Below, one piece after another: positions 8,304 through 50,301 of a stretch of DNA of 64,000 nucleotides. The DNA is taken from positions 25,902,225 to 25,966,224 of the forward strand of contig CM120640.1 of assembly GCA_051362555.1 (NCBI GenBank). The letters run 5' to 3'. Under the pieces are notes generated by a model. That model was not told the origin of the DNA, ran no database searches, and saw only the letters and a program-made list of their open reading frames with translations. Both the position numbers and the translations under genes were made by a program. Numbering within the stretch: position 1 is the stretch's first letter; every line of letters starts with the position of its first letter. This DNA comes from Lingula anatina (lineage: Eukaryota; Animalia; Brachiopoda).

Positions 8304-8339
<36 letters not shown>

Positions 8340-13917: not shown

Positions 13918-13958
<41 letters not shown>

Positions 13959-16900: not shown

Positions 16901-17281
16901 AAATAAATAGGCAATATATATGTAATATATAGTAGATTCATGAAAGAGCAGTGTGATATAAAGAGCCATTGGTTTGGTTTATTTTCTAAGGTCATTGTGG
17001 CAAGCAGGCAAACTTGGCCAAGATAGTCCTGATAGCCACGCATGCAGATAGAGCCATGTGCTTCAAGAATTCTCGCGGGGAGTTTGTCAATGCTGAGGCT
17101 CTGTCCCTGTTAAATGAAATGCGGCAAAGGTTTTGGCTGGACTTCGACATCTCAGAGTCCATATTTGTCCTGGATGCCAACTCTGCCATGTCCAATGATA
17201 TGAAGGCATTTAGACACTATCTTGCAGATCTAAAAATGTCCACAATCCAGGTATTTTACTATTTTTATTTTCTTTGTCTTT

Positions 17282-17316
<35 letters not shown>

Positions 17317-19304: not shown

Positions 19305-19335
<31 letters not shown>

Positions 19336-21398: not shown

Positions 21399-22950
21399 TT
21401 ATTTTTTCAATAGACACAGCTTTCAAACAGTGGTGCCCCCTGATTCAAGTTCTCAGGAGGATTAGTAATTTAATTCCAGAGCATAATGTCTTCAAATTAG
21501 ATGTATTTATTGTTATTTGTGATACCATACACTTTACTGAAATGAACAGAGCAAGAAAGGGGTTAGGGGCATTCTCAAACATATTATTGTTGCTGTTGTG
21601 TAGCCAATTTAGGAGGAACCATTCATCTTGTAGTCATAGTCTTTCAGTTGACTTAGATCAAAGCAATATAAAATGTGTTGCCTTTGAACATTACCAAGGA
21701 CAAGGAGACTTTTCAAATGCCCATGTGTGAATTTAAAACAAAGAGATTAATTTTGTTTCATATCTCGTAGTAGATGAAATAAAGCCAATGCCTGTGGTCT
21801 GAAACTCAAAGGATAAATTTAGATCAGAGTATCAATTAGCTAGTTAATGGTTATCGTTGGGTAAATATAGTTATTATCTTGGGTAAATTGGTTTTGTGTT
21901 ATCTATAACTGAATCAAAGCTAATCTTTATGCACTAGATATTTCACAGAAAATTTAGCAATGCTTTTTTGCACTATAGGGTTAATTAGTTATTTGAAGGA
22001 ACCATTTTTCTCTCCCAAAAATGTAATTAAGCTGTAAGGCTGATGTTATTGAATTTGCTTATGGCCATTTCCTTCTCTAATTTAATTAGCTACAGTAATT
22101 TGGGACTAGATCATAAGTGTCATAAGAATTGCCATTGTTTTGTTATTAATGCTTACAGTGCTGCCATGGATATATCTCCATGAAGCACATCTGATTTAAG
22201 TCTCTTTTTTTATTTATTCTGTTTTTCACCAATGCATTTTTATGAGAGAGGAACATAAGAGTATATATGAAACCAGGGCCAGAAAATTATTGTATCAATT
22301 TGTACGCTAACTATTTCACAAGGTTTGGATACTAATAATGGTTATTAATTCCTGATGGTTACTGTTATCCACTTTGTTGAAAAGTAGAGTAGGAGAGGCA
22401 GGGAGGAAGAAAGGAATTGACGAAGGAAAAGAGACGGGCATTGGATTATGTAAAGACTCAATTGGAATGTGTTCCAAGAAAGAATATCTAGGTATTTTTA
22501 TCACATCCTCAATTAAGCCTTATCAGCAAAACAAATTTCATTATCTGAAATGCTGGTTGCAATAGATAAAGGGAACTTGGATGAATCAATCTGCATAGAG
22601 TATCAGAGATGTAATAGAATTGGTTGTTGCCACTTAGCACTGTATTGTCCAGATACTTAGGGGACTACTTGGGAGTTTGACATTCTTTAAACTAGTCACA
22701 AAAGAAAGGGTATTCTATTAAATGTTGTATTCTACAGTTGTCAGTTTGACTGGCAGTTTTCAGTGTGATAAGTGATTCTGATATTATTTAATGTGCGAGT
22801 TAATATGAAGTCAGTCGCCATTCCATGATATTTTAATTGGTTTTAAAGCCCTAGATGCCACAGGTATACAATTGATTATATTTATAAAATGTTTTTGAAT
22901 GATAAAATGGCGACCTATTTATGGATGCTCAGAATTTTTCTTTGGCACAA

Positions 22951-24138: not shown

Positions 24139-25329
24139 TTAAGGAACCATGCCCGAATTATGATTTTTTGGCGGAGACTCTCGGAACGTTCCCATTTCGT
24201 CTGACGAAAGTTGACTCACCGTAACTTTTCTACAATTAAATCCGAAGATATCAATCAATTTCAAACGGAACGTACGTCCTGTTGCAACGTACAAAATGAA
24301 ATTAATTGAGTGATTTGTGTACATAAGCATGAAGCAAATGCTCCGCGCCAGTCTAATCTTCGCCACGGAATGCTTGTCCACGTTTGTGATATCTGCATAC
24401 ACTACCTCTATGACCGTCATTGGGAAGACTAGCAGTATATATGCAATGCTGACTATGATTGGAATCATGGTGAAATATCCACGCGCATCGCGGCGCTTCT
24501 GGCGTTCTCTTTGTTCCCCGCTGTCCGTATTCAGACTGTTTCTTGAAGTTTGCCTGGTGAGAGAGGACGAAAAGTTTTGCTGTCGTCTTTTGTCCAACTG
24601 TGCTAGGTTGACCACTAAGACAATGTTCATTGGAACCAAGAGTGACAATGGTAAGAATGCATAGGCGACCATGTCCATCCAGGGCCAAATTTTCCGCGCC
24701 TCGTCAGTGAAACAACGATAATGAAGCTGTAGTTTGTCAGAATCGGAGTTAAACTTGAAACATTCTTCAACTATTGTGTATGTGAAAAGTGTAGATGAGT
24801 CAAATATCGCCAAACACACGCCTAAAACTGCTATCGTAATTATGGCACGCTTCTTGCCGTTTTTGGCAGAACACTTTGTTGGAAATATAACCAGTAACAG
24901 ACGCTCCATGGTGATTGCAACAACGCACCAGACAGCAAAATGTCTCGTGAAATGGTACAAAAATCCACCAATAATTGAGCACAATAAATCACTCTTCATC
25001 TTTAAGTCCTCCTCCGTGATTTTCCCGACCCAGAGCCGGAACGCACTGACATATAGCACGAGGGTGTCCATTACAGCCATCACAGCTATATACACAGATG
25101 CCGAATGTTGCCGAATAAATTTGTCTTTGCTCACCACCAGGAGTGACAAAAAGTTACCAATTGTTCCGAGTAGAACTAATGCGGGTAAAAACCACATGTA
25201 GAACGTCCCCGACAGTTTGTACTCGTCAAAAGAAAGCATAAATTCATCGAAATCATCCCTTACGTTGTCCCAACTTACTTGGACATGCTGCTCGTTGTAG
25301 TAGCACGTGGCTGTCTTGTTAGAAGACAT
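24139..25329 (-). CDS. Rhodopsin-like (class A) GPCR, invertebrate peptide-receptor type (FMRFamide/sex-peptide-receptor-like), single coding exon
   Basis: 417-codon ORF; first ATG at 25329 (MSSNKTATC, 396 aa); seven hydrophobic segments; TM1 GTIGNFLS, TM2 MAVMDT, TM3 AITMERLLLVIFP, TM5 LPLSLLVPMN, TM6 ILLVFP, TM7 YTNHSINFILY. Confidence 0.9.
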   Translation of the reverse strand: MSSNKTATCYYNEQHVQVSWDNVRDDFDEFMLSFDEYKLSGTFYMWFLPALVLLGTIGNFLSLLVVSKDKFIRQHSASVYIAVMAVMDTLVLYVSAFRLWVGKITEEDLKMKSDLLCSIIGGFLYHFTRHFAVWCVVAITMERLLLVIFPTKCSAKNGKKRAIITIAVLGVCLAIFDSSTLFTYTIVEECFKFNSDSDKLQLHYRCFTDEARKIWPWMDMVAYAFLPLSLLVPMNIVLVVNLAQLDKRRQQNFSSSLTRQTSRNSLNTDSGEQRERQKRRDARGYFTMIPIIVSIAYILLVFPMTVIEVVYADITNVDKHSVAKIRLARSICFMLMYTNHSINFILYVATGRTFRLKLIDIFGFNCRKVTVSQLSSDEMGTFRESPPKNHNSGMVP

Positions 25330-28300
25330 ACTTAGATAGCATGTGTGACAGAAGTACGCAGCAATGCTCGCTATATATGTTACTGCGAACAATTCTCGAT
25401 GTAAAACTCTACATCCCTACAGCTCATGTAGTCGTCTGGCTGAGCAGGCTACACTGCTGGTCTTGTTGTTTGTGATATACAAACATCACATGGGATTGGC
25501 TGAGCCCTATGCAGCGTCACGCTGCCTCCGTTAATGACATCTAAATCAAGGAAATCGGTTTCTGAACAGCCATAAAAAGGTAGGCCTGAGCCTACAACAA
25601 AAATGAGGAATTGATTGGAAAACAATTTGGACTAAACTGTAAGTGACGGTATGATATTTTTGTAGGAAAATGATGGAGCTCATAAATTATCTTTTTTGAA
25701 CCTCGGCAGTAGGGCCTACATGTTATAGTTAAACAACGATGCCAATGCGAAGTTGCACTTTAAATTCTTAAAGACATACTGAAATCAAGACAAGGGGTTA
25801 AATGATAATTTTTGTGCCCAAAAGTTACTTCAAATTCATAGTACACCTGAGGTTTCACAACAGAATCCGAAAACAGATTTGAACCTGAAGAACAAAAATT
25901 TGATCTACTTCAGTTTAACAGTAAGATAAACTCCTATTAATCCATTTAAATAGAGTAAGTCTTGGTCTGAAACATTAACCATGTTTCTTAGTGTAGTTAA
26001 TGGGCGCAATATTTCATTCAATTGGACTACCGGTGATTTATTTGGGGTCAAAGTAGGCTTAAATTTTGCTCTAAAAGTTAGGACCAAATTACGTCTGTAG
26101 TTATTTTGTAAAACCAGCACCCAAATGTTGATAAAATACCATAAATTCACTTTGCATATTTTTGCTTCTATTTATTTCTATTTTTTAGTGAATTTTTATT
26201 TTTATTTTTATTTATTAGTGAAAATCTCTATATAAATATATCCAATAAGATGTCAAGTTAAAGGTCCAATATCTCAAACTGAACATGTTTTACAATCTCT
26301 TAGAAAACACAGCTGTCTAGGTCTCTAGGGAACGCCAATAGTTATCAGCAATTAGTTATTCTACAATATCCATTGGCGTGAGTTCGTGTATTCTGATCTT
26401 GACTCCTACAATATATCTCTATTATTTAGCAAATAAAATGATATCGGGGTCCAGCAAGTAGCTGTCAAGTAGTTCGAAAAAAATTCAGAGGTATCTTGAA
26501 TTCCATGTTTAATTCCAAATCTGAACACAACCTAAGCACATCTTTAAGTCTGTTTACTGTGTATCATCAATCTAGGGGCCTGTTTTGTAAACGATGACAT
26601 GTTAAAAAAGTTTGTCTAAATAAAAATCTTTCCAGAGCTGAGTACGTTAAACCTACTTTGTGTTCAACGAGAAACAGAGCCCAGTCTAAGATGAAGCGCA
26701 AGGCCTTTTTCATTTCTTATTGAGTTGTCATTTTATCAGCAAACTGCAGAGAGCTCTGTGATTTCGGGCTTGATCTCTACTAGTAACACAATTTCAGTAG
26801 TATTATCCTGCTGTTGCCCTTATATCAACTTTTACCTTAAGATACTCCACTGGTTCTGTAATCTTTTCAGCGCCATCAGAGAGTTATACTGAGATATGCA
26901 AAAACTGCTACCTGTTGGTTATGACTTACATACAACCTGTCATGCACTTGATTTATCTAAGCATTTTTTCAAAGAGAGAAGTAATTAAAAGGTAGAAATT
27001 TAGCATAACCCTGTGCAATGTTGTCTGATGACAGACACACAGATCAACAATCAAGACAGAACGTCCTGATCTTGGAAGGTGACCAAGATATGATCATTTT
27101 GATTCTAGCAGATCAATTCCAAGGTGGCCGTCCTGGCCTCCTTCCTTGTATCAGCTATGAAATAAGATTAAACGTTTCCTGCAGGCAGAAAAAGGGCAAC
27201 AAATAACATAGTTAATTATCTTTGATTCCTGTGAGGAAATGTTTCTAGGACTCCACATCTAAATGTCAAGTTCAGTTGCGGTTTTTTCGTGAATGATGGA
27301 TTAACTAGTCGACTGAAAACGGGTCAGTAAAAAACGTAATTAAATTAAGCACAATTTGAGTTGAAATAAGTGGGTCAATGTATGTCACGTAAATGTAATT
27401 TTAAGTCCCCTAATATGTAAATTGTCGCAATGCTTAGCGTATATGCAGTTGTAGTTAACATTTGTCGTCCGAAGTCGGTGCCCGAATATTGCCTGTGCAT
27501 CGATTTTGTACGGAGGTAGGCGTGAGCCGTCCGAAATCGAACGGATTCTCGGCCTTCGCAATCAAGCCTAAACTTTTGACAATTTATTAATCGTTTGCTT
27601 GTATAGTAGGCTGTACCAATTTCATCGTAGTTGACACTGAACAGTTCCCGTGGGGGCATTGTTCGGTGGAATCGCAATGATCGGAATGGTCGATTCCGTT
27701 TTTGTCTCTCTACTTTCCACCTTTGGTGCTTTGGGGGTAGAACGATAGTGAAACTAAGCGTTATTGCATTTCTAAGAATTTGAAGTCGTGTGTTTTCTTA
27801 TTCTGACCATGTGGGGGCTAAAAACGAAGAGGGATTGTAGCCTACAGACAACGTATCGATCTTCAAAGAAGACACGTAGAGGGTGCACGGCAACTGCACT
27901 CAGACTGAAAGGGCTCCGTATGATCACTCTCAACCGACAAACCGATTTTCCCTACCTTACCTCAAGGTCATGTCGGAGAAATGGGATTGCACCCGTTCAA
28001 AATGTAAACTGGTAGGTACTCTCCCTTAGCCACTTACGATGTCAAGAAAATCGCACGGAAAATCATGTAAGATTTCATCGTACGGTGCCCGTGGCAAATC
28101 TAATCTAGTCCTCGAGGCGGTACCACATATTGACAAGCAATCGAACAACGCCAATGTAATCACACTCATGGGTTTTGTAAGTGACACAGGCAACATTTCT
28201 AAATCAGATTTAAGTTTGGAAATTTCTTCTTCATGCTGATGTGTTAAGAGACAATTGTGAATTTTCTGTGAATTCTGACGATCAATATCTTCACACTGTT

Positions 28301-30867
28301 ATGTACAACAACCCACTTACGAAGAGCGTAAGTGGAAACTACATCTTGTATCCTTTTCTTTTATTTTCACATAACAGCCCCCTCTAAAATAAAAAAAATA
28401 GCCCCAGAAATTGGTATTACCAAGTTTTTCCTGTTAGTTCTTTAAAAAGATCACTAATTTACAAGCTCCTTTCAATCTTATTTCTCGATCTATCATGACG
28501 TATTCCCTGAAGTATACCAAAAATGTCATCCCAACCCACTGACACATTGTTCTTTTACCCGACTGCAGTGTCACTCCCACTACTTACAACATTTTGTTCT
28601 AGGTAGGCACTAATATTGCGACTCGTTTTTTATCTAATAGGCAAATTGTGAATCTAGTCATCCATCATCATCGGACACTTGTTCAAAATCATGTGTGGGA
28701 CGATGCCCTTTCCTTATAAAAAAATGTTATAAACACTTGGAGAGAGGCTGCACCAGTCTACGAGACTACGAAATATTAAGCGCTGCATTCATTTGTACAA
28801 TAAACCCCAAGTGGACAATACACTGACTATTGAATAATTCAGAATGCCATGTAGTTGTGACATGGGATTCCTGGTCCTGACCTCTGACGCCAGGGGCTTC
28901 TAAAATAGCACACAAAATTAAGGTATCAGCGATATAATGATTTTGCAACACAATACTACTCTGACCACACACTGTGGTCAGAGAGTAGCCTGACCCTAGC
29001 TGTAGGAGAAAAGTGTAGGCTATATGATAATTAAGGTTGTAAAATAAGGTTGTCCAAATGCCTTCAAGTTTTCCGGCGGGATTATAGCCCTAATTCCAGG
29101 AACTTGTCCAACTTAAACAGGATATTTACTGCTTTGATACAAAGGACGCACACCCCGTTATATATGGACATCAAGCAAAGGTCTAGCAAGAACATGTTCC
29201 TAGTACGTCCAAATTGCCTACTTTTGCTCAACGTAAATTGAATTTTAGTTGGCAATCCCTTTGGACAGATCTCTTAGGTCATTACTAACTCCATTAACAT
29301 GCGGTATCCTACCGATACGCTCTGTAACCTGTAGATATTCAGGCGAAAAGGAGTTAAATCGCTAGTGTAATCTAAAAAGAACTTTGAAAATAAATACGTT
29401 TTCTTCAGTTGTAAACCATATGAAAAACAAAGTGACTATCTTTGCTGCCAGCAAGCAACAATATGGTAGAGATTTAGGGGGAAAACTCGACGTATCTGTG
29501 CCATATTCTTCAAAACGCCCGAGCCCCGTTCTCATATTTTTTATTCTGTATTGATTAAACATGGCATTGCGAATGACCAGTGAATAAGTGACCACACCTC
29601 ACATAAGTGCGTCCCCGAAGATTTAAGGGTATTTTCAGACAGGAGAAACTCATTTTAGGAGTCAGAACATAATTTGTTTAAAAGTGAATTGAATACAACT
29701 AAAGAAGTGTATGAAAGCACATAATTTTAGAGTTCGGCACTGCAGTCTTGCATTAAAATACGATCACAATGCTGCAACCATTTTGCAATGTGTTAGTTGT
29801 GCTCTTCATTCCCAGTAGGTTACGTTTTTCATCAGTTTCAGTCGATTTTCTGTGTCATACCTACTTTTCTTCTGAAAAATAACCTAACATAGAATAGTAA
29901 CCGGTGCTGTTTTTTTTTTTTAATCTATCAGTAAATGTTGGAGATAAACATGAATTAACCTTTTAATGTTAAATTTAACGATGGATCATTGTTACGTACG
30001 TTTTACAATAAATGACAATATTCTCCCTTTTCCTATAAGAACTAAAACGTAGCTCAGTAAGCGATAAACTACATGAATAACATTCCAGATGTTTATCAAG
30101 AGAATTCAAAAACTGGAAGATGTATTATTTCTATTACGATTTTTGGAAAGTTGACATCTGGATCATGCATCAGAGCCCTACATACCACTTCAATCACGCA
30201 GATATTGACGGCTTCTTCCGCTAGCCAATCGTGTAAATTTTTGTAAGGGAATTGGAAAAAAATTCTTAGCAACGAGTTATAGAACTTTCCTCAGATTAAT
30301 TTAATTCCTCTTAAATTAATAACTGGAAATGTTCTGTAAACTTCGAAAAATATTAATACCATCTTTCAAGTTTCAGAAATTCGAAATAACAAGTCACAAC
30401 AAGGGAAGTTTAATTATATCATAATTGTTATATTTACATTTTATACAAATGTAAGCATCAAACTTTGATTCTGAATGCTCTTCAAATTGCTTTGGTACAT
30501 ATCTGCAATCTATAATTTATTGTCAGGATCTTATTTTTTCAATGTTGGCTTACACGGATGAAATAAATAGCATGATGTACTTTTACGATAAAAGAACAAC
30601 ATATATAGTAAAATTACAGAAACGATAGGCGCAAATCTGAGCAGCTAGTTAACATTACAATGGGAAATGGATTATAATGCTTTGTACATTTTTTTTCCTG
30701 CAGAAATTAGCTACTTTTCTATAGAACATGGTTTGTACAAAAAACATAACTCTTCTCTTTTCAAACTTCACACCTTATCATTTCCCTGACATCCAACTGA
30801 ACATTCAAATAAACGCTTTTGATTTATAATTGCTCATGCATTATCAATATACAAGTCAATTGCACTG

Positions 30868-31126
30868 TCAGTTAGGTGTCATCCAGAAAGGCATAGAAGG
30901 GGGTGGCATCTGGAACCCTGGGGATGCTACAGTCACTAGCCCTGCTATTAAATCAGTTAGGTGTCATCCAGAAAGGCATTGTAGGTGGTGGTATCTGGAA
31001 CCATGGGGATGATACAGTCACTAGCCCCTGCTATTACATCAGTTAGGTGTCATCCAGAAAGGCATTGTAGGAGGTGGTATCTGGAACCCAGGGGATGATA
31101 CAGTCACTGGCCTCTGCTGAACATAC
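30868..31126 (-). repeat. Tandem triplication (86/85-bp units) of the KHDC4 C-terminal coding segment and stop codon
   Basis: Three copies ending ...ATGCCTTTCTGGATGACACCTAACTGA, stops at 31039, 30953 and 30868. Confidence 0.95.
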
Positions 31127-31616
31127 GTGTCTTGGGGGCTTGACCTTCCAAAATGCTCTGGGTTCTGTCCTCCAAACTGTGTTGAATTCCCAGCAGCAAA
31201 TGCTTGGCCTTGCTGCTGTGGTGGTGGTGGCGGCGGCTGATGTGACTGAGGCAGTTGCTGTGACAGGGGTAGACCTGGTCCCTGTGGCTGTGTAAACTGT
31301 GGTCCAAATGGCTGCTGTGGATTAAACTGTGGCTGTTGTGGTTGTCCAAACTGACTTTGTGTGAACTGGCCCCCTTGTTGTTGCTGCTGGACAGCAAACT
31401 GACTCTGTTCAAACTGTTCTTGACTAGTAAAGTGTGGCTGGCCTGGTTGGCCATATATTTGGGGTTTGCTAGAGTACTGATTGAAAGCATACTTTGCAGC
31501 TTCTCTGTGTTGCTGCCTCATTGTCGAGTTCACATCAGTGTCTTCCTCATCATCTGATCCATATGCTGTGACATTACGCAAAGCTCCCTTCATACGCTTT
31601 CTCTGGGGCTCCACTG
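31039..31616 (-). CDS. KHDC4: KHDC4 terminal exon
   Basis: [25 protein letters not shown]...[16 protein letters not shown]. Confidence 0.9.
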
Positions 31617-34600
31617 CTGTAAAGGTAAATTGTACAATTTCATCAATTTCAACCAAAAATATGAAAAACATCAGAATTAACATTAGTCATTTCAGGGATG
31701 TGATTGTTCAGGGTATTGCCCATTTAAGATTTTATCAAGAGAATCACATCCCTTCAGTTCCCAGGAAATGGCAATTGCAAATGATAAAGTTTCAATTTAC
31801 AGATGAAAAAAAAGTAATAACTGGTAAACGCAACCATTTCTCAGTTTGTGGGAAGCAAATATTACAACTACCTTGATCTTGTAAGGCTCCTAGGGGAGGT
31901 GGAGGGGGTGGTGGCATTAGCAGACTGTCTTGATTTTGCCTGCAAAAATGACATATGGCATGGAATTACAAATTCTGGTGTAACTATTCATATCATTTGA
32001 AGCTGTTTTGAATCTTCAAATGCAATTAAGGATATGGATATCTGGCATATCTTATATTTGTTTTGTGTGCTGAAAAGTAGCCTCCTGATATGTAACTAGC
32101 AGTCAGAAGATTGTTCTCCCAGCAGTTTTATTTTGGAGGGGTGTATCAGTGATTATGTGAGCCCTGTACATAGATCACTTTCTTAACCCTCCACCCATTA
32201 GAGAAACTTGCACTCATTTTTACTTCTGTCACAATTTCTATTTGTTTTATACTGCAATTCATAAGCAAATATCATGATCATTTCTCTGCAACTCCTTTCT
32301 ACATCTTATATTAATGAACCATCAACCTAAGTAAAAAGACAATGACAGTTTAAGCTACTTTCTAGCTAATAAATGTCCAAATGATAGGATTTATAATGTG
32401 GGGCACTTGAAAAGTATTTCATGCCGAGACAACTACACATCTGATCTTTTCTGTATCAACTGTACCTCAACTCCTCTGGGGGTGGTGGAGGTGGTGGGGG
32501 CGGAGTGATACCAAAGTGTTGTTGCTGTGGCTGTTGTGGTCCTGCCTGTGATGATGGTGGGGGTGGGGGTGGCCCAGATGCTACCAAGTTCACCAGGTGT
32601 GTTGGACCATGCTGAAAGAGCACATATCCAACAATAAAACTTTTTTATCAAAATTATAGTATTCAATGACATTGGTGAAAACATTTATTTATTTTATTAT
32701 TTTTTTTTACAATCTCAAAATCTTTAAGGTGATGTATTTGACATATTATGATGGCTTTAAGAAAACACTAAGGAAGCGTCCTCAGTATTACTCTTTGCAC
32801 AAACTATTATTCCTATGTCAACAAACCTGATATCCCAGCAACCCCTCTGGTAATTTCTCCTCCTGTTTCTCCTCTGTAAACCTCCTCTTGTGTGGCTGCT
32901 GCTGTTGCTGCTGCTGCTCCATCTCCCTCTGCATGCCAGCAAAGTTATTATAATAAGGAGGCAGGCCCGAGGGGAACCCATCCCCACCATTACTGTGCCC
33001 TGGGCTCCCTGGAAGATTGGAGGCCACACTGGCCTGAGGTGCTGGACCACTGGGGCCCATCTGACCCAAGCCTGCCTGCATCTGCTGTTGTTGTTGTTGT
33101 TGCTGTATCTGTTGTTGTAACTGTTGGAACTGCTGAGGTGCTGCCTGCTGCAATATTTGCTGACCACCCCCTTGGATTTGTTGCTGGACCTGAATGTAAA
33201 TGTCAAATAAAATTGCATAAAAATTTAGTTGAATTTAATGCCATATATTTCATAGAAAATGATGTTACATGGGAAACATAACACTACCACAAATAAAACA
33301 TTTAAATAATTCTGCTATAAAAGTTAGCAATTAGACCCTTTAGTGATTACTCAAACAATACAGAATTTGTCCACTTACTTGCTGTTGTTGCAACTGTTGT
33401 TGTTGTTGCTGTAACTGGTGCTGCTGTTGCTGTAACTGTTCTTGTTGTTGTTGTCTTATGCGTGTGATCTGGTTGAGCTGGTTGACAGCATCATTGAGCT
33501 GCTGGCTAAGACTGACACTGGCTGGACTTTGTAATAGCGGAGACTGGGATACATCAGGCATTCCCCCTAAAACACCGGTGCCTGAAGAAAACAATTTCCA
33601 ATACAACACCATGATAATAAATGACCAAACCAGACAACAATCATGCTACCATGCTTCTTTCTGGTTCAATTTTAAATGAGTGCTCCTTCCTTTTTATCAC
33701 AGTATTAAGTAAATTTGTTCCTACAAAATACAATTTTGATACTACTATATAAGTGTTTTTCTTTCTCTTAAAAATCTTCTTGTCTATAACTTACTTAATC
33801 TTGGATCATTTGACTGCAGCCCAGGTGACAGTTCCCTGGGTGGTGGTAATATATGTGGGTGATTGACTAGAGGGGGCGGAGGCTTGGACAAGATTTGATT
33901 CAATGAAGTGGCCGCTGTGAGCAAATCTGAAAGAAAAATGATAAAAAATCTTTATGTATGTCATAATATTTAAGAAGGATAAATTATTATTAAGTAATTC
34001 AGCAATCCGGAAGAAGTATGATAAACTCCTCAGTATTAGCAATTAGAATTTTCTTTATTCCATGCTTTACATGATCACTTTTCACATTTACAGTTTTCCT
34101 GATACAGCCAGTAGACAGCTAGATATATTCTCAAGTAGGCAAAATCCATTCTTGAGTAATGAGCTTTGCATAAGCATACTACATTCCCTGGAATACATAC
34201 TTTCTGACTGTGCCAGCAGTGATGGTACAGAGGAAGGTGCCAGTGAAGTGGTTAGTGTTGAGCCTGGCTGGAGCAGAGAGGCCAGAGTGGACATCAGAGA
34301 GGGGCCGGACACTGGCATTCCCAGGCTGCTGGAGGGTATGACTGGAGTGCTCAGTAGGCTGGGTATACTAGTTGCCACTGGAATCAACCAATGATGGCCA
34401 TCACATATAGTAATAAAACTCTGTTCCAACAGTTTATTTGACATTTTTAGATGTTTTGCTTTCATTTGGAAACATGCACTGCTTACCACTCAGTTACAAT
34501 TGATTTTATTTCAGTGCCACTACCACAGAATGAATCTTTTAAATGCAGATTCATATTAACACCACCTTAACATAAAATTAGAATGCCCCAGGCAGTTCAT

Positions 34601-37600
34601 AATCGATTCCTACAAAATTTATGCTGCATGCATAAACATCATTTGAACACAACAGCAGAATTGTAATCACCTGAAGTGGGTAGCTGTGCCACATGTGTCA
34701 ATCCTAACCCAGGTGGGGCAATCAAACTCTGGCCTGCAACAGATGCTGAAACAGGGGAACATATGTCAGTGAGAAAAAAACAACAGAAAGCAGGATGACA
34801 CAGACAGTACATGTCAACAGTGGTTTCACCTTTTCAAATAAAAGCAACAGGAATTCACAAACATACAAACAAAACATTATTCATGTGACTTTACACAGTT
34901 TTCATTTTGTATATCAAATGAAAGATACTGTACAGCAATAATTGCAATGGTAGAAGCTGTGAAAAATCATTTTGTCAGTCCCTAGCATGCTTCGATCTTG
35001 CCATTACTGCTGTCTTTTTGACAGTTTCCCATTGAATTGGAAGTCTTTTTCTCCACAAACATGCGCATCCATTAGCAGTGAATACCTAAAATTGATCAGG
35101 CAGCTGTAATTGAGTAGTCTTCTTGCATTCCTTGATATAAATCAGTGTTAAAGAAAGGGACATCCATAATCTGTTTGTGCCAAACAGAGAAATATTCTTT
35201 CTTGAATACCAATAAATGATGGACAAAAATACAGACAGGAATAAAATATCTTTTGATATTCCTTTAAGTTGTCGGGTAGGGTACTCCTTCAAAATCATTA
35301 AATATGGATGGCTGGTGTCTTGAGCAGTCTTCCCTCAATTCTGAGTTAAAATGTTTAAAAAAAATTCTATGTTTAATTAGTGAATTATTGTCAGAAACTT
35401 AAAATCAACCTAAATATAACATATTACCAGGAATAAAAACACATTACATATGGTGTTAATTGGAAGCAGCAAGTTCAATTAGGCAACTAATATTGAAGTG
35501 TAAAGACTTCCAAAAGCACTTGGATTGCTGTGTAGAAGCACCATCTTACTGCAGTTACTGAAGATTGTATGCAAAGTGACACCTGGGAAAGAACAGGGAG
35601 AGGCAAGAGGGGACAGCAGACAACTTGCTTCTACACAAATAATCAAGCACCAAAAATATTTAAAAAAAACATGCTTTGCTTTTAACATATAAACTATCTA
35701 CTTCTCACCTCCAGCCCCTTAATTTGTTCAAAAACACAGAGCACATCTTCAGATCAATAATAGGTGCAGAACAGAAGAATGCTTAGTCTAAATAAACTAT
35801 CTACATTGTGAATTAACATACATGCAAAAAGATAGCTATTAAAAATGAGAAAAGCATCATTGGGCTGGAATAACAATTAGATAATAGCCATTGCACCATT
35901 CAGTTTGTCTGTTATTTTTGACAACAGTACTGAATAATGTAAAACAAACATCTGAAAGAGAAACAAAAAATGCATTTCCCAAAGAAAGTAAAATCAATCA
36001 AGGTTTTGACTGTCTTTTAATGGTAATATAAAACCACATACATATCTTGCAAAGCAGTTTGTGAGGATGAATCTTTGACACAGGCAACCCTTTAGTCTCA
36101 ACCTCTGTTTCAGAGTAAGGATATAACTTTGGACATCACGAGTTTCTAGCCAAAGGAATCCACCATATACAGCATCTTCATTGGGAACATCTGTTGTTAA
36201 ATTGTTGACCAAAAGACCTTTCAGGCAGTTGGCATCCAGGTTACTTTCAGGTCTTCGCATGAGGGAAACAGTACAATAGCCATCCAAACTGCATGAAGTG
36301 GGAAGTGATTGTTGTTTCTTTAGTTACATTCCTTCACCTATATTCACTAAAAAGAATGGGAAAGGTCCATTGTCCGAGAACTGAAACAGGAAATGTCTGG
36401 TTGCCATGGAAATTAGTGGTAAAGACTTACTCTGGTGCTGTAGGCCTGCTAGCAGTGCAGCTGTACCTGGTGATACTGCAGGAGGCATTGCTGCCAAGGC
36501 TTGCTGGAACTGGGCATATTCTTGTTGGACCTACAACAGATTTCACATGGCATTTCAAGGTAAAAATCAAGACAAACAGTTGACCTACAGAGGATGAACA
36601 AAAAATGGAAAGTCCAGAATGAGGAAACATACTACCTGAGTGACTGTAGCACTGGCTGGCAACCATCTCAGCTCACAGGAGGTGGAGTTCACTGCTCTTT
36701 CAAAACTGACACATTTCCATTTAATCACATTTCATCATTTCATACACACTGCATTCCTTTAAGGAAAGGGAATGTTATAAAAACTATTTGGTCAAAAATT
36801 ATATGTTTTAGGGAAAATACCCCGTAGACATATAATGTGAAATTCCTGCAAATTCCAATCTGGGCATATTTCTTTTCTATTCACCTGCTTTAAACATCAA
36901 GACAGCCTAGTTTTCGATACCTTTAATGACCCAACATATGTAATACGTCCTCTGAAATGGTTTCTCATTGAACGCCTGTATTTTTTGGAATAAAAGGTTT
37001 CAGGCATTCATTTATGATCAAAGGAATACAACTGGAGAAACAATCAACCAATCATTCCACACAGTATTTCCTACATCTGACCCACCATCATATCATTCCC
37101 TTGCAAACATGATAATAAAAACATATACATATTTACAAACCTTGTATATTACTAATTATGTATAACTTCCTTGGGATTTGGAGAGTAATCTAAGAAATGC
37201 AAGCCAACATGCATCAATATAACAATTTGTAAATTCTTATATAACTTTACCCTAAAGAGAATTTTTCATATAAACATCCTTATGGTTCTCTAAAATATAT
37301 CTTGTTTTTGTTATTCATTTTTTTTGAAAAAGAAATCAGCTGCTGAAAAGAAAGAAATCAGTAACCGTACATATTAATTAAGATGAAAAAATTCCATTCC
37401 GACAACCTATGGTTAAGAAATGAGAGAGAGAGCACTTTGATCAATTATCTAAGGAATTATAATGTTGAAAAAAAAAAAAGGCAAAAACTGAAATGGCAAG
37501 TGAGAGAAAATGTGGGTGGATTCCTGCTTAACTTGTGCTAAAATTCAAATGAAGTCCAATCATGAAAAAAATTGACTCATCAATTCAAATAGGGATCATT

Positions 37601-40600
37601 CAAAAAAAGACAAAAATTCCACCTACTGTTTGTATAAGGTTTGCAGCTAACTGCTTGGTCTGCTGTAAACCCACCATATTAGCATGCCTGAAAAAAAAAG
37701 CTTTTTTTAAGAATACTGCAGTAACAAATTAAATGAATACATATTGATTCATCATTCAATTAACATGATCAAAAGCAATGGAGGCTTTTACAGAGCATTC
37801 TTTCTAGAAAACTTGCATGGTCATTGTACTGTCTATGTTAACAAACACATCAAAAAACCATAGACATTCCCAAATTGTTACAATCCCTAGCAGTCAACTC
37901 ACTGTATAAATATGTGCATGGGCTCAAAGGACTCCCTTCCTGTGGCTGGGTCTATGTAACCAGATCCTTTCCCCTGAAGCATCACTTTGCCTCCAGTTTC
38001 CAGCTGGATGTGTTGCAGGAAAGAGCACTAGGACAGAAATAACATGGTTTGAATGAAAATGAATATATAATATGCACTGTCTTAAATTAAGCAAACATAT
38101 ATATATGAACTTGTGGACATGTGATCAATACATGGAGAAGTGTTCAGGTTCCAACTTACCCCTGGACCAAGAAGTTTGTTTTTGACATCAAAAGTGGGTG
38201 GGGCATGCTCCAGACCAATGTACAACTTTTCTTGGACAAAGGATAACTGAAAAAAAAATTACTTCTTGTACATTCAAAGTACATCAAATCAGGAAGCCCA
38301 TTGGTCATATCCACAAACAATTTAAACATCTGACTTCTAAAATTATGACAATTGTTTACTAAAAGAAAGAATCAAAAGAGCTTCTCACCCCTGGAGGCTG
38401 TGTGTTAAGTGACATGAGTGGAGGGGGTGGCTGACTAAGTAAAGGGGGCGGTACACTGGATAGCACTCCAGGCATTGGGGGAGCTGCCAAGGGGTTCTTT
38501 AAAGCTGCTTGAGCCATCTTCTGGGCCTTGTGCTTGTAACCATTGGCTATTATCTCCTTGATTCTATCTACTGCTTCTGAAATACAGGAAAGGATGAAAA
38601 GATTGTTAGTAAATGTATAATCAGACACTGACAACCTTGCTGACTCTAAAAGCTAAAATTATTTTCTGGAGCACGAGTTATATAACATTTTATCTAACCA
38701 TTTTTTAAAATATCTCTGTTATGCACTTACTATCAACTGACTCTTGTGTAGCACCTTGAACACACAAATACAAAGGACGATCATTGGCACTGGAAAAAGC
38801 ATAAACATCATGTAACAAACTGATGATTTCAGATCTTAATACTGAGGACGTTACAACATGAAACAAAGCTATGTCAAACAAAACATAAGCATTTTACTGG
38901 GATCAATTTACAAGCAAATAATTCAAGCATCTCAAACCAACTTACTAAAAACACTGTTTAACAATATTCAGATTACTTATCATTCTACATTCAAAAATAT
39001 AAGAAAGAGCTCACTTGTTAGCATGTCTTGCCTTCTCCTCTGGGTTCATAAATCTCCCCCTGGTGGACACTGCAGCTCCACTCATCTTGGATATCTAGCA
39101 ATAAAATAACACCATCAGTAATTTACTATAGACTTTTATCCAGACAAATAAAACCTTCCTCTTTACACATCTTTACATTAAACAACTGTCAAACATGTCT
39201 ATCATTGAAGAATTTTATGATTACTTTTAAATTACTTTTGCAGCATGTGATGTTAAAAATGCATATTTTTCGATGCCCATCCAGGCTAGTATATCTCAAG
39301 AGTAAATTATGAAAATTCGAATCGAGTTCTGTGATTTTACCTCATCTTGTGTTGACCCTCTTGTGAGCATGTTCCGACATCCAATAGGAACATCATTTAT
39401 TTCTACCTCAGCAACTATCAAGCTATTTGGCTGTGATCCAGTCTGCAAAACAGAACAACCCAAATTTGAATGGAGTGGATAAAAAGGAACAAAACACAAT
39501 TGTGTCCATAACAAGTGCAAGATCCAAAATCAGACATCTAGATAAGAAAGCCAAAATAGATGTTCACATGAAAAGATACAAAATTGCTCCCTCATGTAAG
39601 TCATTTGAAAACCATTCTCAAAATACTTCTGAGATTTCTCTTACTTTTGGTTTTGTTGGTATACTAGCTGGCTGAGATAACTGTGATGGCTTTAGCTTTC
39701 CCTTGGCTATTAACATGGCATTCACTTTGGCTGCTGCCTCTGCAGCAGCTTCCAGGCTACTACGTTGAGCACTGGATGCAACAGCAGGATTATCCCACTT
39801 GCTGGCTCTGTTTCTACAAAAAAGAGAAAAAAGTCAGTAGATATTTTTTATCAGTGGTTCCAACTTTTCTATCCTTGTTTTTGTCATATAATTTAATACA
39901 GGGGCAACTGCACTACCTCCACACAAGGGCTTATCTCCTGGAGACCATTTAAAGATGAGAAATCATGGTTCACTTAAATGTTACATCAACTTTGACTTCA
40001 GCCCACTGCTATAAATCTACTGAAACCTGATGATTATACTTTGAATTTTTTCTTTCCACAAAACACGATTTAGTGAGAGGGAAAGTATAGCACGTACCTA
40101 AAGGGTTTCAGTCATTTTTATATCATATAAGTCAATATAATCACACTGATCCATTTCATTTGTTTTTCAAAAGGCTAAAATCAAGTCTTCAAATTTGCCC
40201 ACACACCGTCCACAAACCGTATACCTCTTTAATTTTTAATGCTTATTAAATTATGTGCTGACTTTGATCAATCTCTCTGCCATTCCAAAGTACAAGTAAC
40301 TGAATTGCCAATTGTATTGGAGTAGCAGAGACATTGCTCAAAGTCACCACATAAAACCGAAGACTATGTGATAAAAGGGAGAGAGAGAGAGAGAGAGAGG
40401 TTGCAAAAGTGCCGCTAGTTGTTCGAGACGAATAACCACTAATAATGTAACAGTGTAGGTCTATAATCTTGAGTTGTGGTAACTATCAACATATCACTTT
40501 CACAAAGCAGTGCTCACTTTTTCTACTTCTCTGATAAATTGATAATATGATAATAAATTAAACATAAATAACACGACCAGTTATAACTAGGCAAGAAAGA

Positions 40601-42576: not shown

Positions 42577-42937
42577 TCAATTAAATATTTTGAAACTTTT
42601 GTTGAATATTCTAAAGCTTGGCACAGATTTTTTATGTACTCCACGGGCACTGTCTTTTTCACTTCTTGCTTCACTTTTTGGCGATTTAGCTCGCCTGAAG
42701 CCAGGTCTTTGTAAGCTTCCTGTTGAGCCAGGTCCAAGAGCAATACTGCCAGAAGGTTTGTCCTCAGTAATAAATAAAGGTTGTAAAGGCATTTGTCTCT
42801 CTTTCTCCCTCTGAATTTCCTTAACAATTCCATGAAAGACGGTCTCTACACACTGATAATCCTCTGCTGCTGTGGTCTCATAGAACAAACATTCCTGCTC
42901 TGTGGCAAGTGCTGAGCCTTCTGCTTTACTGACTTGT
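42577..42937 (-). CDS. RASL12: RASL12-like terminal exon
   Basis: QVSKAEGSALATEQECLFYETTAAEDY...SFRIFNKSFKIFN*. Confidence 0.92.
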
Positions 42938-45444
42938 CTGGAAATAACAATATATTACCTTGTAAAATAAGCATAAATAATTTTGAATGAAAAAAAAAAA
43001 ATAACCTGAAATTATATAAAACATAGTAACATTTAGAATACATTCAACTCTTAAACTACATTACTCAAGGTTGCCTTATTTATATTTACACAGTGGCGGA
43101 TTAAGGGGGGGGCGGGGGGGCTTTGATTTCTGAAAAAAATCACACCAATGATCCCCTCTTGAAATTAGAATTTTCACTAGCTGAATCATAGTTCTAAACT
43201 GTACCAAATGGTACTGTTCGCCGTCTAAAATACCAAAATTTTTCGGGGCCCTTCAGCTGCCCCAAACCCCATGCCAACGCGGACCCCCCCCCTTTAATTA
43301 ATCCTGGATTCAGTCCTGTTACATGTACATATATTATACATGTGCTATATTAATATAATGTATTTGTACTAGTAGTGCATTTACCTATATCGTTCTAGGT
43401 CCATTTTGTTCCCTACTAATGCCAGTGGAATCTCTCTTGTTGTTTTATTCTGATAATTCAAAACTGAGCAAATGTAGTTCCTGGCTTCTTCATAGCTCTG
43501 CCTGCTAGTTATACTGTATACTACTATGATGCCATCTGCCCAACGCAAATATCTTTCAGGGTCTGAACCCTCCTGAAACAAACAATGATCATCTGAGAAT
43601 TATTCATCTTCAGTTTCATTTCATGTTTCAAATCAATCCACATTTTTTAATGATCACTTTCAAAACCCTTTTGCAACCACTCTAACCAGATATTAATGTA
43701 TTGTTGAAAAAAATTCCATTACCCATACGACTTTTCAATGCTTTTTTCATCATAATAAAAACCATCTGCTTTAGAAAACAACGAAAAATGAGGTGTTGTT
43801 TTACAGTTATTGGACACTGAAATCTGTTTTTCATTTGATGGTTGGTTGCTTTTATTGCTTTTGGAGTGAAAACGACAATTGGCAGGAATATAAGATTAGG
43901 CTTTTTATGAAGATTTTTTGTTTTTGTTTTTCAAAATTTCTAATTTAGAAAGTTTACAGGCCTTTTCCTTTAATAATTTAATTTAAATGAAAAAGAATTT
44001 CCTATTAAGAACTTTAGGGGGAGAGAACTTACCCTATCATAAGTATCCATTATTCTGACTATGATCTCTTGTGCATCTATACATTCATGCTTTGTATATG
44101 TATCTTCTAAAAGAGAAAAATTATAAAATTGTGAACATATTTTAACTTTTTTAATAGGAAAAATAAAATACACTTCATATTACATTCAAACTGAAACAAG
44201 TGTCCATCAGATATAATCACAAACTACTGCAACAACATGCTGAAAAGATTTGGTAAATGCGTACACGTAAGTCGCCCACACATAATTTTTTCATAAACAG
44301 TGTGTGGAGCTTATCAGCTATATTTACTCCAGTAATACTTGTGTGGCTTTACATCTCATATTAGTAAATGCGTCATTACTCAAATGCCCTGCAACTCTCT
44401 CAGAGACTCAGAACAGTAGCATCCCACAAATCTCCTACCAGATGGATTATCAAAGCAATAAAGCATCTATTTCAAATGACTTCTGGCAAATTATCAGACT
44501 GAGTATGATTTGGTTAATAAACAGACGTAAATGAACTTATTGGTCTCTCAATGGCCTCATAATGCCAATGGAATGTCAACAGCTCTTGTTTTTGTGCTGG
44601 GAAATCATCTGAATTCTGAGAACAATTTCCTAATTACAATGCAGGTCACAATGGTGCACAGTAACATATAATCCTTTTCAATATTTTTTCTTTTCATTGT
44701 CTGATGAAAAAACAGTAACAGATAAAATGCTTTTTAAAGTGAGCTTTACTACAAAAATAAAATCACTTTGACTAAATTTGCAACATCAATGGGTATCTAC
44801 TCAAAGCCATTTTGATGTACTTGTATACTCATTGTTAGTTTTCATGATAATCTGTGAGATAATTTTTACAACTCAAAAAGAAAAAAAATCAAACATTACA
44901 CACCATTCTTTCTAAAATATTTTCTGGCCCCGAGATGCTTTTCCAAAGCTTTGCCTTTTCTTCTTGTCAAAAAAGGTCTGAATTACAAATGCCTGATAAT
45001 TCAAAACACATATTTGAAAGATGCTTGAAAGTATGATATTTGCATCTACTGGTTTTAGAAACAATTCTTTCCTTTTCTTAGGCCTGTCCTGTCATTTTAA
45101 AAAAACATTTATAATATTGAGAGATACAGGTAATTCATTAAACAATGACGCAAAATTGTAATATGAGAATTGCATGATTATAGTGTAAACAAGTAGTATA
45201 CTGAACATGCCAAATGTTGATTTTAATTTCCCCCATACAGCTATATGCCAGTCATTCTTATAATCAATTTTTGTTGCAGGTGTTTACTGAGAGTAACATG
45301 GTCTGGTAAGCACATGGTGTAAACAATTTACGTCTTCTCTTCTCCTCTGCGCAATATTTTGTTACTGAACGGTACAGGAGTACTAGTTATCATATTTGCC
45401 ATTACTTGATACAGCATTTCTAGTTTAATTCAGGGGAAATAGAC

Positions 45445-45521
<77 letters not shown>

Positions 45522-48500
45522 AAATGTGGAAGAAGGGTAATGGTCACGTCCAAAACATGATCTTTCCCTTTCTTCATTTTTAACAATTTTCAATGTAAGT
45601 TAGATATAAAGTGAGCGTAGAATCCCTATAAGGCATATAAACCACTTCCACTAGTTTCTTATACAACTAAAATTAAGTTGCCATGCAAGGTCATAAACCA
45701 AATTTATCCATCGTTCTGCTAAAAAATAGGTTTAAAACGGCACCTTCTTCAAATTTTTGGTCGTAAATTGACCTTTTTATCCATCACTTCACTTTATTTA
45801 AGTCCCATAAATGACACAGTTTTATGCCGGTGTAACATGAAAATCTGACTCCCATGAAAATGTGACTCCCCAGTCAGATTTTCATTATGAAAATGTGACT
45901 CCCCAGTCAGATTTTCATAATGAAAATCTGACTCCCCCCATGAAAATTTGACTCCCCCTCCACAAAACTTCATACATCTTATTTTATTTGAGTATATGAC
46001 TGTGATCTTGTTGTATGTAAAATGGATGATACGTTGGCACATTTTTTGTAGTTTGCAGTGAAAATTCAAATGAAAAAATAAGAAAAATAAAAATGTGCAC
46101 ATAAAGAAAATCTGACTCCCCCGTGAAAATTTGACTCCCCCATCATAAAACTTCATAAATCTTATTTTATTTTGGGTATACGTCTGTGATCTTGTAGTAT
46201 GTAAAATGGAGGATACATTGGCACATTTTTTGTAGTTTGAAGGTGAAAATTTTAATGAAAAATAAAGAAAATTAAAAATGTGCACAAAATGAAAATCTGA
46301 CTCCCCCATGAAAATTTGACTCCCCCGCCACAAAACTTCATAAATCTTATTTTATTTTGAGTATATGACTGTGATCCTGTAGCATGTAAAATGGTTGATA
46401 CATTGGCACATTTTTTGTAGTTTGCAGGTGAAAAATTATGTGAAAAAGTAAGAAAATTAAAAATGAGCAAATAATGAAAATCTGACTCCCCCATGAAAAT
46501 ATGACTGCCCCTCCACAAAACTTCATAAATCTTATTTTATTTTGAGTATGTGACTGTGATCTTGTAGTATGTGAAATGGAGGATACATTGGCGCTTTTTT
46601 TGTAATTTGCAGGTGAAAATTTTCATGAAAAAATAAGAAAATTAAAAATGTCCACTTAATCGCCTATTGTCTCCCCTATGAAAAAGTTATTTAATATTTG
46701 ATGATCATTTCATCACCTTTTCTTTTAAGATACTTTATGAAAAATATATTGGAAATATTTAAAGGTTTGATGATAAAATAGTGAAAGCATGAAAAAGAAA
46801 CCATGAAAATCTTTATTTTTACACCCATGAGATTTGGACTCCCATGGAGAAAAGGACCTATTTTATATTCAGTCACCATACCACTGTTTTCCACATAGTT
46901 TGCATAGAGATGGATATTTTGTCATTATTTGAAAGTTTGATGATGAAAATTTTGGTCAATATTTTAAAACAAGTATCCATCTTTATTCTTGTAGGTTTTG
47001 CACTCCCATGTCAAAACACTACATTTTTAACACAAGAAATTGGCCCCATCGCCTTTTTTTTAATTCTTCTTATATAGCATACCCAACAAAACACTTTCTT
47101 TTGTTTTCCCATTATTTTCCCCAAAGGTGGATGAAAGATGGGGGTTTATTAAGCAAAAAGGATAATAAGTATGCATTCTTGCGCCCATAGGACTTTGACG
47201 ACCCATCTTACAAACCAAATGTTTCATATTTAATATTTTTTCCTTTAAGCTACGTCATATGAATAAGCTACCCACCAAGCATGTCACAGTCCTATCACAT
47301 TTGAAAGTTTGGTGGTGATAACTTTTGTCAAAATTGAGAATTTTTTAGCAGCATTATTCACATGTTGGTGATATTTCCTTACTATTGTGTTCTTAAATTC
47401 CAATATGATTTTTTTTTAGTTAAGGGGCAAAAGTATTTTGATTTAGCCTAGTGTGCAAAGTAATCATTAAGTTTTCACTGCCACAAGGTAAAATATTGAA
47501 GAGAAGCAGAATTTTCTTGTCTCAGTGGATCCTTTTTACATTCATCTACATTTTGTTGATATTGTATGCACTTAATTGAAAAAATATTCTTTTCTGATAT
47601 GACCCAAAACAATTTTTATTTTCATATAGCTTAGTGTGCAGAGTTATCATTATATATACAATGAAAAGTATGTGGAAAATAGTGATATAATGACTGAATA
47701 AAAAATAATTGTCCTTCTCATGGGTGCAAAATAAATATGATACTGAATTTCTCACTATTTTTAAATTTCAAACACTTATTGCAAAAAGTAAAAACATTTA
47801 AATGTGTGCTAAATATGAAATAAGTGCTTTTATCTAGGGGAGTCAAAATCCTACGGGTACAAGAATGCAAATTTATTATCCATTTTTCATTTATTTTCAC
47901 GCAGTATTTTACCATAAAACTTTTTAATATTTCCAATAAATTTTTTCATAAAGTATCATAAAAGAAAAGTTGTCAGAATGATCATCAAACATCAAATAAA
48001 TAGCTTTTTATAGGGGAGCCATTGGGTGTTAGAAAACAAATCCTTAATTTTTCTTTCTTTCATGTGTTTTATTACTTTTTTCTCTCAATTTTTTAACCAT
48101 GTGCACATTTTCAATTTTCTTATTTTTTCATTAAAATTTTCACTGCAAACTACAAAAAATGTGCCAATGTATCAACCATTTTACATGCTACAGGATCACA
48201 GTCTTATACTCAAAATAAAATAAGATTTATGAAGTTTTGTGGCAGGGGAGTCAAATTTTCATGGGGAAGTCAGATTTTCATTATGTGCACATTTTTAATT
48301 TTCTCATTTTTCATGAAAATTTTCACCTGCAAATTACAAAAAAAGCACCAATGTATCCTCCATTTCACATACTACAAGATCACAGTCACATACTCAAAAT
48401 AAAATAAGATTTATGAAGTTTTGTGGAGGGGGAGTCAAATTTTCATGGGGGAGTCAGATTTTCATTATGTGCTCATTTTTAATTTTCTTATTTGTTAATT

Positions 48501-50254: not shown

Positions 50255-50301
<47 letters not shown>

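What the first reader, a model, noticed from the sequence alone, without database searches (positions are those of the whole stretch)
32061..32194. Intronic H/ACA guide RNA for U2 snRNA (SCARNA4/ACA26-like) inside an invertebrate KHDC4 gene
Seen: the minus strand reads UGGAGGG UUAAGAA AGUGAU...AUCACU GAUACAC CCCUCCA AAAUAA AAC UGCUGGG AGAACA AUCUUCUGA...UCAGGAGGC UACU UUUCAGCA C ACA AAA, i.e. hairpin-H box-hairpin-ACA. Pocket 1 (UAAGAA/GAUAC) pairs with U2 GUAUC-U41-G-UUCUUA and pocket 2 (AGAACA/UACU) with AGUA-U39-C-UGUUCU, each about 14 nt from its box. Recalled knowledge: human SCARNA4/ACA26 guides U2 Psi39/Psi41 next to the branch-point recognition region and is hosted by KIAA0907/KHDC4. 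Inference: the pairing of guide and host, a splicing factor carrying a spliceosome-modifying RNA, may be ancient in bilaterians. No canonical UGAG CAB box is visible in either loop.
Basis: partly seen in the sequence, partly recalled or inferred. Interest (0 to 1): 0.78.

Follow-up and report, generated by a model that had tools for sequence, protein, structure and literature searches.

The report
U2 guide RNA inside brachiopod KHDC4
An intron of the splicing-factor gene KHDC4, in what is likely the brachiopod Lingula, holds a 133-base H/ACA-type RNA gene predicted to guide modification of two uridines in U2 snRNA; such guides are already known from fly, worm and vertebrates, and the one new point is that it shares its host gene with a vertebrate copy, which likely reflects an ancestral arrangement.

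Summary
The hairpin-H-hairpin-ACA element at 32061-32193 (minus strand) is real. It lies in a spliced intron (31940-32465; joint in 8 of 8 RNA runs) of KHDC4, whose exons match Lingula anatina KHDC4. Its pockets fit U2 U41 (6+5 pairs) and U39 (6+4). The best Rfam match is SCARNA15 (53 bits, E 8e-9, under the gathering score), not SCARNA4, and the 3' pocket has the working SCARNA15/fly form. Invertebrate guides of this kind are published (fly pugU2-38/40/42, worm C50C3.14). None lies beside KHDC4 exons: hosts are GMP synthase, PSMB5, MRGBP, TMEM214 and two unidentified. So the host pairing is not general in invertebrates, and the intron probably differs from the vertebrate one. Still, a SCARNA15-type sequence in the SCARNA4 host gene is best read as the single ancestral guide in its ancestral host (about 0.7). 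Expression of the mature RNA and the species' own U2 were not shown. Verdict: new member of a known kind, modest evolutionary interest.

The parts
32061..32193 (-). predicted box H/ACA guide RNA, 133 nt (true ends not mapped)
   Evidence: sequence, fold, Rfam SCARNA15 match, covariation with homologues
32134..32193 (-). 5' hairpin with pocket for U2 U41: left strand UAAGAA 32185-32180, right strand GAUAC 32147-32143; loop with ACAG 32167-32164
32128..32133 (-). H box AAAUAA (ANANNA)
32068..32124 (-). 3' hairpin with pocket for U2 U39: left strand AGAACA 32117-32112, right strand UACU 32079-32076; alternative right strand CUAC 32080-32077 for U37; A at 32111 where most homologues have G; loop with CUAG 32099-32096
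32064..32066 (-). ACA box, followed by three bases
31940..32465 (-). host intron, 526 nt, GT-AG, second-to-last intron of KHDC4; guide starts 272 nt after the donor and ends 121 nt before the acceptor
   Evidence: RNA-seq joint in 4 of 4 runs and 4 of 4 further runs
32466..32611 (-). upstream KHDC4 exon (HGPTHL...PEELR)
31872..31939 (-). downstream KHDC4 exon ([11 protein letters not shown]...)
31039..39815 (-). KHDC4 (KIAA0907) coding exons 2 to last; the exon with the start codon lies further upstream and was not located
   Evidence: PDB 2yqr E 9.8e-17; P0001 Lingula anatina KHDC4, 100% over the KH2 exon, exon by exon; Pfam KH-I_KHDC4-BBP and KH_12 on P0001

Best explanation
[quoted passage not shown] It works like SCARNA15 and fly pugU2-38/40/42; a third site, U37, is doubtful because the base that pairs with U2 C40 in that register is A here. 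It is likely the brachiopod counterpart of the single guide that gave vertebrate SCARNA4 and SCARNA15, still in the ancestral host gene but probably in another intron. Shown: anatomy, intron, host, pocket complementarity, conserved homologues. Inferred: accumulation, activity, Cajal-body location, ancestry of the host (that last step about 0.7).
For: Full-length SCARNA15 match E 8.3e-9, also best for each half. Fold z -2.83. Nine homologues among 36 pattern hits; 6 of the 7 scanned match SCARNA15 and/or PsiU2-38.40.42 at E up to 0.011. 17 of 22 stem pairs change on both sides, 92% of cells paired against 37-47% when slid, while the left pocket strand AAGAA and a loop AG, neither in the search pattern, are invariant in 9 of 9 aligned. 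Homologous fly, worm and Xenopus guides were shown in yeast to modify the equivalent sites (PMC5733568; PMC3884663). The A-U pair next to the target, needed for U39 activity, is present. Intron spliced in 8 of 8 runs, same strand as the host. Single copy in the window. Human SCARNA4 host is KIAA0907.
Against: Below both gathering scores. No read evidence for the mature RNA. The species' own U2 was not obtained. The 3' upper stem closes with A.C (also in L094 and, by eye, chicken GGgACA49). PMC5733568 warns that predicted pockets often fail when tested. One homologue locus (L097) gave no Rfam match. Covariation counts come from related sequences and a structure derived from the same alignment. 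For ancestry of the host: 0 of 6 independent invertebrate loci show KHDC4 exons; snoRNA location is reported as unstable over deep time (PMC3511168); KHDC4 also hosts SNORA42 in human, so it is a permissive host.
Confidence: 0.88

Rival explanations
1. The RNA is a working guide, but its place in KHDC4 is an independent arrival: the guide moves among broadly expressed genes and landed in the same gene as vertebrate SCARNA4 by chance.
For: Hosts differ across animals: GMP synthase (L094; fly bur), PSMB5, MRGBP, TMEM214, SNHG21. Intron probably not the same: chicken lists a KIAA0907 RNA in intron 6, human SCARNA4 lies about 6 kb upstream of SNORA42 in intron 10, whereas here it is the second-to-last intron and introns 6 and 7 are 142 and 132 nt. 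Constrained-drift model.
Against: The host pool looks wide (every identified invertebrate host is a different gene), so hitting the vertebrate host by chance is unlikely, by my rough estimate 1 in hundreds to thousands (not computed from data). Moves between introns of one gene are reported as common. This rival concerns the host only and is compatible with the guide function.
Confidence: 0.27
2. It is a strict SCARNA4 orthologue that guides only U41, the 3' pocket being inactive as in human.
For: Same host gene as SCARNA4; a same-clan match, presumably SCARNA4, was hidden under SCARNA15; A.C closure of the 3' upper stem.
Against: 3' pocket is AGAACA/UACU with full pairing; no second clan member was reported for the 3' half; AGAACA form kept in fly consensus.
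Confidence: 0.06
3. It is a silent or decaying copy; the working guide lies elsewhere in the genome.
For: No reads on the element in 4 of 4 runs laid at fine scale, though these mRNA-type libraries cannot show it (see Tried and rejected); one bivalve-like source carries copies at two loci, so extra copies occur; no whole genome was available to look for others.
Against: Both boxes, both pockets, four stems and both loop AG motifs are intact; compensatory changes relative to homologues include this sequence.
Confidence: 0.06

Closest known systems
Vertebrate SCARNA15/ACA45 (Rfam RF00426, clan CL00019), non-eutherian form
   Same: Best Rfam match; pockets for U2 41 and 39; same 13-nt spacing to ACA as the consensus; chicken GGgACA49 has the same pocket strands by eye
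   Different: Score 53.2 under gathering 65; host is KHDC4, not SNHG21; A instead of G at the base used for the U37 register; no exact UGAG
Drosophila scaRNA:PsiU2-38.40.42 / pugU2-38/40/42 (RF02667) and C. elegans C50C3.14
   Same: Same pocket strands AAGAA/GAUAC and AGAACA/CUAC; intronic; protostome
   Different: Fly host is bur; score 28.8 under gathering 88; fly RNA is a tested triple guide, U37 is doubtful here
Vertebrate SCARNA4/ACA26 (RF00423, clan CL00019)
   Same: Host gene KHDC4/KIAA0907; 5' pocket for U41
   Different: Scores below SCARNA15; its U39 pocket has an A-G mismatch and was inactive when tested; intron probably different; listed as conserved in tetrapods and teleosts only
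Yeast snR81
   Same: Guides the equivalent of U41 (U2 42)
   Different: No sequence match reported; relationship not tested

Membership tests
box H/ACA guide RNA | hairpin-hinge-hairpin-tail fold | tested here: met
box H/ACA guide RNA | H box ANANNA in the hinge and ACA three bases from the 3' end, 14-15 nt from the target | tested here: met
   the RNA's true 3' end was not mapped
box H/ACA guide RNA | in an intron, on the host's strand | tested here: met
box H/ACA guide RNA | accumulates as a stable small RNA | tested here: inconclusive
   no depth on it in 4 runs, 0.93 in a 340-nt bin in 1 of 4; mRNA-type 150-nt libraries
box H/ACA guide RNA | binds dyskerin, NOP10, NHP2, GAR1 and modifies the target | not testable with these tools
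   bench work
Rfam RF00426 SCARNA15 | reaches the gathering score of 65 bits | tested here: not met
   53.2 bits; so not filed under RF00426 itself
U2 branch-region guide group (SCARNA15, pugU2-38/40/42, C50C3.14) | 5' pocket for U2 41 | tested here: met
   6+5 pairs, against the human U2 motif
U2 branch-region guide group (SCARNA15, pugU2-38/40/42, C50C3.14) | 3' pocket for U2 39 with a standard pair next to the target | tested here: met
   6+4 pairs, U-A38; criterion
U2 branch-region guide group (SCARNA15, pugU2-38/40/42, C50C3.14) | alternative 3' register for U2 37 | tested here: inconclusive
   CUAC present but A faces C40; G in 5 of 8 sequences examined
U2 branch-region guide group (SCARNA15, pugU2-38/40/42, C50C3.14) | the species' U2 carries the target | not testable with these tools
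   no genome; 0 of 69 viral-contig hits to the motif were U2
SCARNA4 (RF00423) | hosted by KHDC4/KIAA0907 | tested here: met
SCARNA4 (RF00423) | best or gathering-level match to the SCARNA4 model | tested here: not met
   SCARNA15 ranks higher for the whole and both halves; SCARNA4's own score was hidden
SCARNA4 (RF00423) | same intron as the vertebrate copy | tested here: inconclusive
   chicken intron 6, human upstream of intron-10 SNORA42 against second-to-last intron here; vertebrate exon borders not obtained
scaRNA | CAB box UGAG in the hairpin loops | tested here: inconclusive
   no exact UGAG; AG core, reported as the crucial part, present in both loops at conserved columns
scaRNA | Cajal-body location, WDR79 binding | not testable with these tools
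   bench work

The most novel reading that the evidence does not exclude
The last common ancestor of bilaterians had one U2 39/41 guide in a KHDC4 intron; Lingula keeps it. In vertebrates it was doubled with its host by genome duplication: SCARNA4 stayed in KHDC4 and lost U39 activity, while SCARNA15 kept the ancestral pockets and its non-coding host SNHG21 is the decayed remnant of a KHDC4 duplicate. That would date a snoRNA-host pair to over 550 million years, against the constrained-drift view, and give a traceable origin for an SNHG host gene. That 1q22 and 15q25 are duplicated regions is recalled, not tested.
Probability: 0.35. Interest if true: 0.58.

Novelty: new member of a known kind. 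Interest (0 to 1): 0.33.

Why it matters
The guide type and its chemistry are known and were tested in fly, worm and vertebrates, so the RNA itself is ordinary. Its value is evolutionary: it joins the sequence type of SCARNA15 with the host gene of SCARNA4, which is what an unduplicated ancestor would look like, and it bears on how long snoRNA-host links last. It and the homologues scanned here fall under Rfam gathering scores, so they would widen the vertebrate-biased models. A genome survey of KHDC4 introns would settle the matter cheaply.

Tried and rejected
No whole genome is held, so no search for U2 or other copies. U2 sought by a 16-base motif in viral contigs: 69 hits, none with shared U2 context, judged by eye. 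Guide patterns in viral contigs: 0; in prokaryote genomes: 3 bacterial hits, none scored by the model. Of 36 metagenome hits 27 were dropped: 26 lacked the upstream AAGAA and L071 had it but no two-hairpin fold; none of them scored better than E 0.47 with model R1 (the kept loci match R1 by construction). Sequencing-run search: no RNA holder listed. Reads on the element: none in X3, X5, X6, X8; X1 alone had depth 0.93 in bin 32005-32345, too coarse to read; these libraries give no verdict on expression. SCARNA4's bit score stayed hidden by the clan filter even on half-sequences. No second snoRNA (such as a SNORA42 relative) was found in 30300-40600. Atlas search for the L105 host: no usable hit. 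Hosts of L070/L096 and L076 not identified; for L070/L096 no exon was seen within 1-2 kb, so KHDC4 is not excluded there. Weak matches SNORA47, snoR104, ceN39, SCARNA8 were rejected as shared H/ACA stems or pockets. The search for a 1q22/15q25 duplication paper gave one unrelated listing. Earlier scan findings: nothing relevant.

Full report
Observation. It folds into two hairpins with a single-stranded hinge and tail (-37.7 kcal/mol, z -2.83, 1 of 200 shuffles as stable). No Rfam family reaches its gathering score in the window. In E-value mode the stretch matches SCARNA15 end to end (53.2 bits, E 8.3e-9, gathering 65) and the fly family PsiU2-38.40.42 (28.8 bits, E 0.0052, gathering 88); one lower match of the same clan was left out of the table, presumably SCARNA4. 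SCARNA15 is also best for each half alone. A model built from this sequence and its homologues finds no second copy in the window (next hit E 1).

Host gene. One exon matches the KH domain structure of KIAA0907 (PDB 2yqr, E 9.8e-17) and is 100% identical to a protein named Lingula anatina KHDC4 isoform X2 (P0001), which maps exon by exon to 31042-39815 on the minus strand. The window is therefore likely Lingula. RNA reads give the joint 31938/32465 in 4 of 4 runs and in 4 of 4 more: a 526-nt GT-AG intron, 31940-32465, the second-to-last of the gene, between P0001 residues 698 and 699. The element starts 272 nt after the donor and ends 121 nt before the acceptor. The reads do not show the small RNA itself: no depth on it in four runs, 0.93 in a 340-nt bin in one of four. 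These are mRNA-type libraries of 150-nt reads, so this gives no verdict.

Target. The species' U2 could not be obtained. Using the U2 motif in the finding, numbered on the human sequence printed in bioRxiv 10.1101/2021.08.01.454689 (passages), pocket 1 gives 6+5 pairs around U41 with 14 nt to the H box, and pocket 2 gives 6(+1 G-U)+4 around U39 with 13 nt to ACA. PMC5733568 (parts 1-4 of 6 read; supplements listed only) showed in yeast that non-eutherian SCARNA15, fly pugU2-38/40/42 and C. elegans C50C3.14 carry pockets for the 41, 39 and 37 sites, and that human and Xenopus SCARNA4 modify only 41, the human U39 pocket failing through an A-G mismatch next to the target. This RNA has the standard pair there, so it works like SCARNA15. 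For U37 the right strand CUAC is present, but the base facing C40 is A (32111), against G in 5 of the 8 sequences examined; that site is doubtful. The same paper warns that good-looking pockets can be inactive.

Homologues. One scan of metagenome contigs with a pattern holding the right strand of pocket 1, the H box, pocket 2 and ACA gave 36 loci. Ten had AAGAA upstream and nine of them the two-hairpin fold; they form six independent loci (L070/L096, L100, L076, L079/L092/L097, L094, L105). Of seven scanned against Rfam, six match SCARNA15 and/or the fly family at E up to 0.011, all under gathering; L097 matches neither. In an alignment of the window with eight of the nine (L092 left out as a duplicate), AAGAA and an AG in the 5' loop, neither in the pattern, are invariant, and an AG in the 3' loop nearly so. 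17 of 22 stem pairs change on both sides and 92% of cells pair, against 37-47% when the partners are slid (related sequences, structure taken from the same alignment). PMC2172171 (passages) states that A3 and G4 of the UGAG CAB box are the crucial bases, so ACAG and CUAG here are plausible degenerate CAB boxes; PMC3884663 (passages) notes that fly scaRNAs work without one.

Is the host ancient? For: human SCARNA4 is in KIAA0907 (PMC4914119, supplement file 1 rows, files 2 and 3 not searched; PMC6023535, passages), and the Lingula RNA is its clan relative in the same gene. Against a general pairing: no KHDC4 exon was found in the seven loci searched with profiles that omit Lingula and do detect the window's own flanking exons (all nine; all 39 loci by tblastn). 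The hosts are GMP synthase for L094 (the fly guide is in bur, recalled to be GMP synthase), the last intron of PSMB5 for L097, MRGBP for L100 (nearest named protein from a clam) and TMEM214 for L105 (nearest named proteins from bivalves). L076 lies between exons of an unidentified gene; L070/L096 show no exon nearby, so KHDC4 is not excluded for them. These animals could also hold further copies in KHDC4. Human SCARNA15 is in the non-coding SNHG21 at 15q25.2 (PMC8271217, passages). The intron probably differs: PMC2653536 (passages and supplement rows) lists an orphan RNA, GGoACA5, in KIAA0907 intron 6, which I take by eye to be chicken SCARNA4, and GGgACA49 with the window's pocket type in another host; human SCARNA4 lies about 6 kb upstream of SNORA42, which is in intron 10 (PMC4966663, passages). 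Lingula introns 6 and 7 are 142 and 132 nt, too short for the RNA. I could not get vertebrate exon borders. PMC3511168 (passages) finds snoRNA location unstable at the depth of all eukaryotes; PMC6984369 (passages and supplement rows) says many guides keep orthologous hosts and that SCARNA15 is conserved in invertebrates, and places Xenopus SCARNA15 on chr1 and chr3 and SCARNA4 on chr8.

Reading. Function as a U2 41/39 guide is well supported by homology (0.88). For the host, the wide range of genes used elsewhere makes a chance hit on the vertebrate host unlikely, and moves between introns of one gene are common, so I favour an ancestral KHDC4 host lost in several invertebrate lines (about 0.7, a judgement from two lineages) over independent arrival (about 0.27). 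The mix of SCARNA15-type pockets with the SCARNA4 host fits an unduplicated ancestor of both; origin by vertebrate genome duplication rests on recalled paralogy of 1q22 and 15q25, and one search found no paper for it.

Novelty. The guide type is published for invertebrates. I found no report of a KHDC4-hosted copy outside vertebrates in searches (listings only, apart from papers named above); the library lacks most subscription papers and genome annotations, and unseen supplements may list it. Also read without bearing: bioRxiv 10.1101/2023.06.18.545459, PMC12342898 and PMC1687206 (passages). I file it as a new member of the known U2 branch-region H/ACA guide group, not under RF00426 or RF00423 by score. 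Interest 0.33.

Noticed in passing
window 30868-31118 (-): An 86-nt unit in 2.9 tandem copies spans the KHDC4 stop codon; each copy encodes the conserved PFWM tail, the second and third lying in the 3' UTR.
   Followed up: partly
window 34746-37625 (-): The two long KHDC4 introns after the KH domains carry steady read depth in all four runs, unlike the short introns: possible intron retention or alternative ends.
   Followed up: no
window 31914-32478: A few reads in four runs show other letters across the joint of the host intron (table 5c), probably a diverged allele or paralogue of the flanking exons.
   Followed up: no
window about 4600-21400 (+): DAPK1-like gene: ankyrin-like exon, ROC/COR part and Death domain.
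   Followed up: partly
window 24142-25416 (-): Single long ORF for a rhodopsin-family GPCR.
   Followed up: partly
window 42580-56487 (-): Exons of a Ras-family GTPase, RERG-like by recall.
   Followed up: partly
window 45916-48837 and 60036-61897: Tandem arrays of about 185 nt (two blocks that look oppositely oriented) and 146 nt (12.8 copies).
   Followed up: no
L070:1136-1266, L096:1207-1336, L100:1175-1305: Near-identical guide copies at two loci that share a short upstream flank, one in an MRGBP intron: a recent move or duplication in a bivalve-like animal.
   Followed up: partly
L094:2480-2611: Guide in a GMP synthase intron, as reported for the fly bur gene: host apparently kept in that lineage.
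   Followed up: partly
PMC2653536 Table and supplement: Chicken GGgACA49, assigned to ACA26, looks like SCARNA15, and the orphan GGoACA5 in KIAA0907 looks like a SCARNA4 that lost its U41 pocket (by eye).
   Followed up: no
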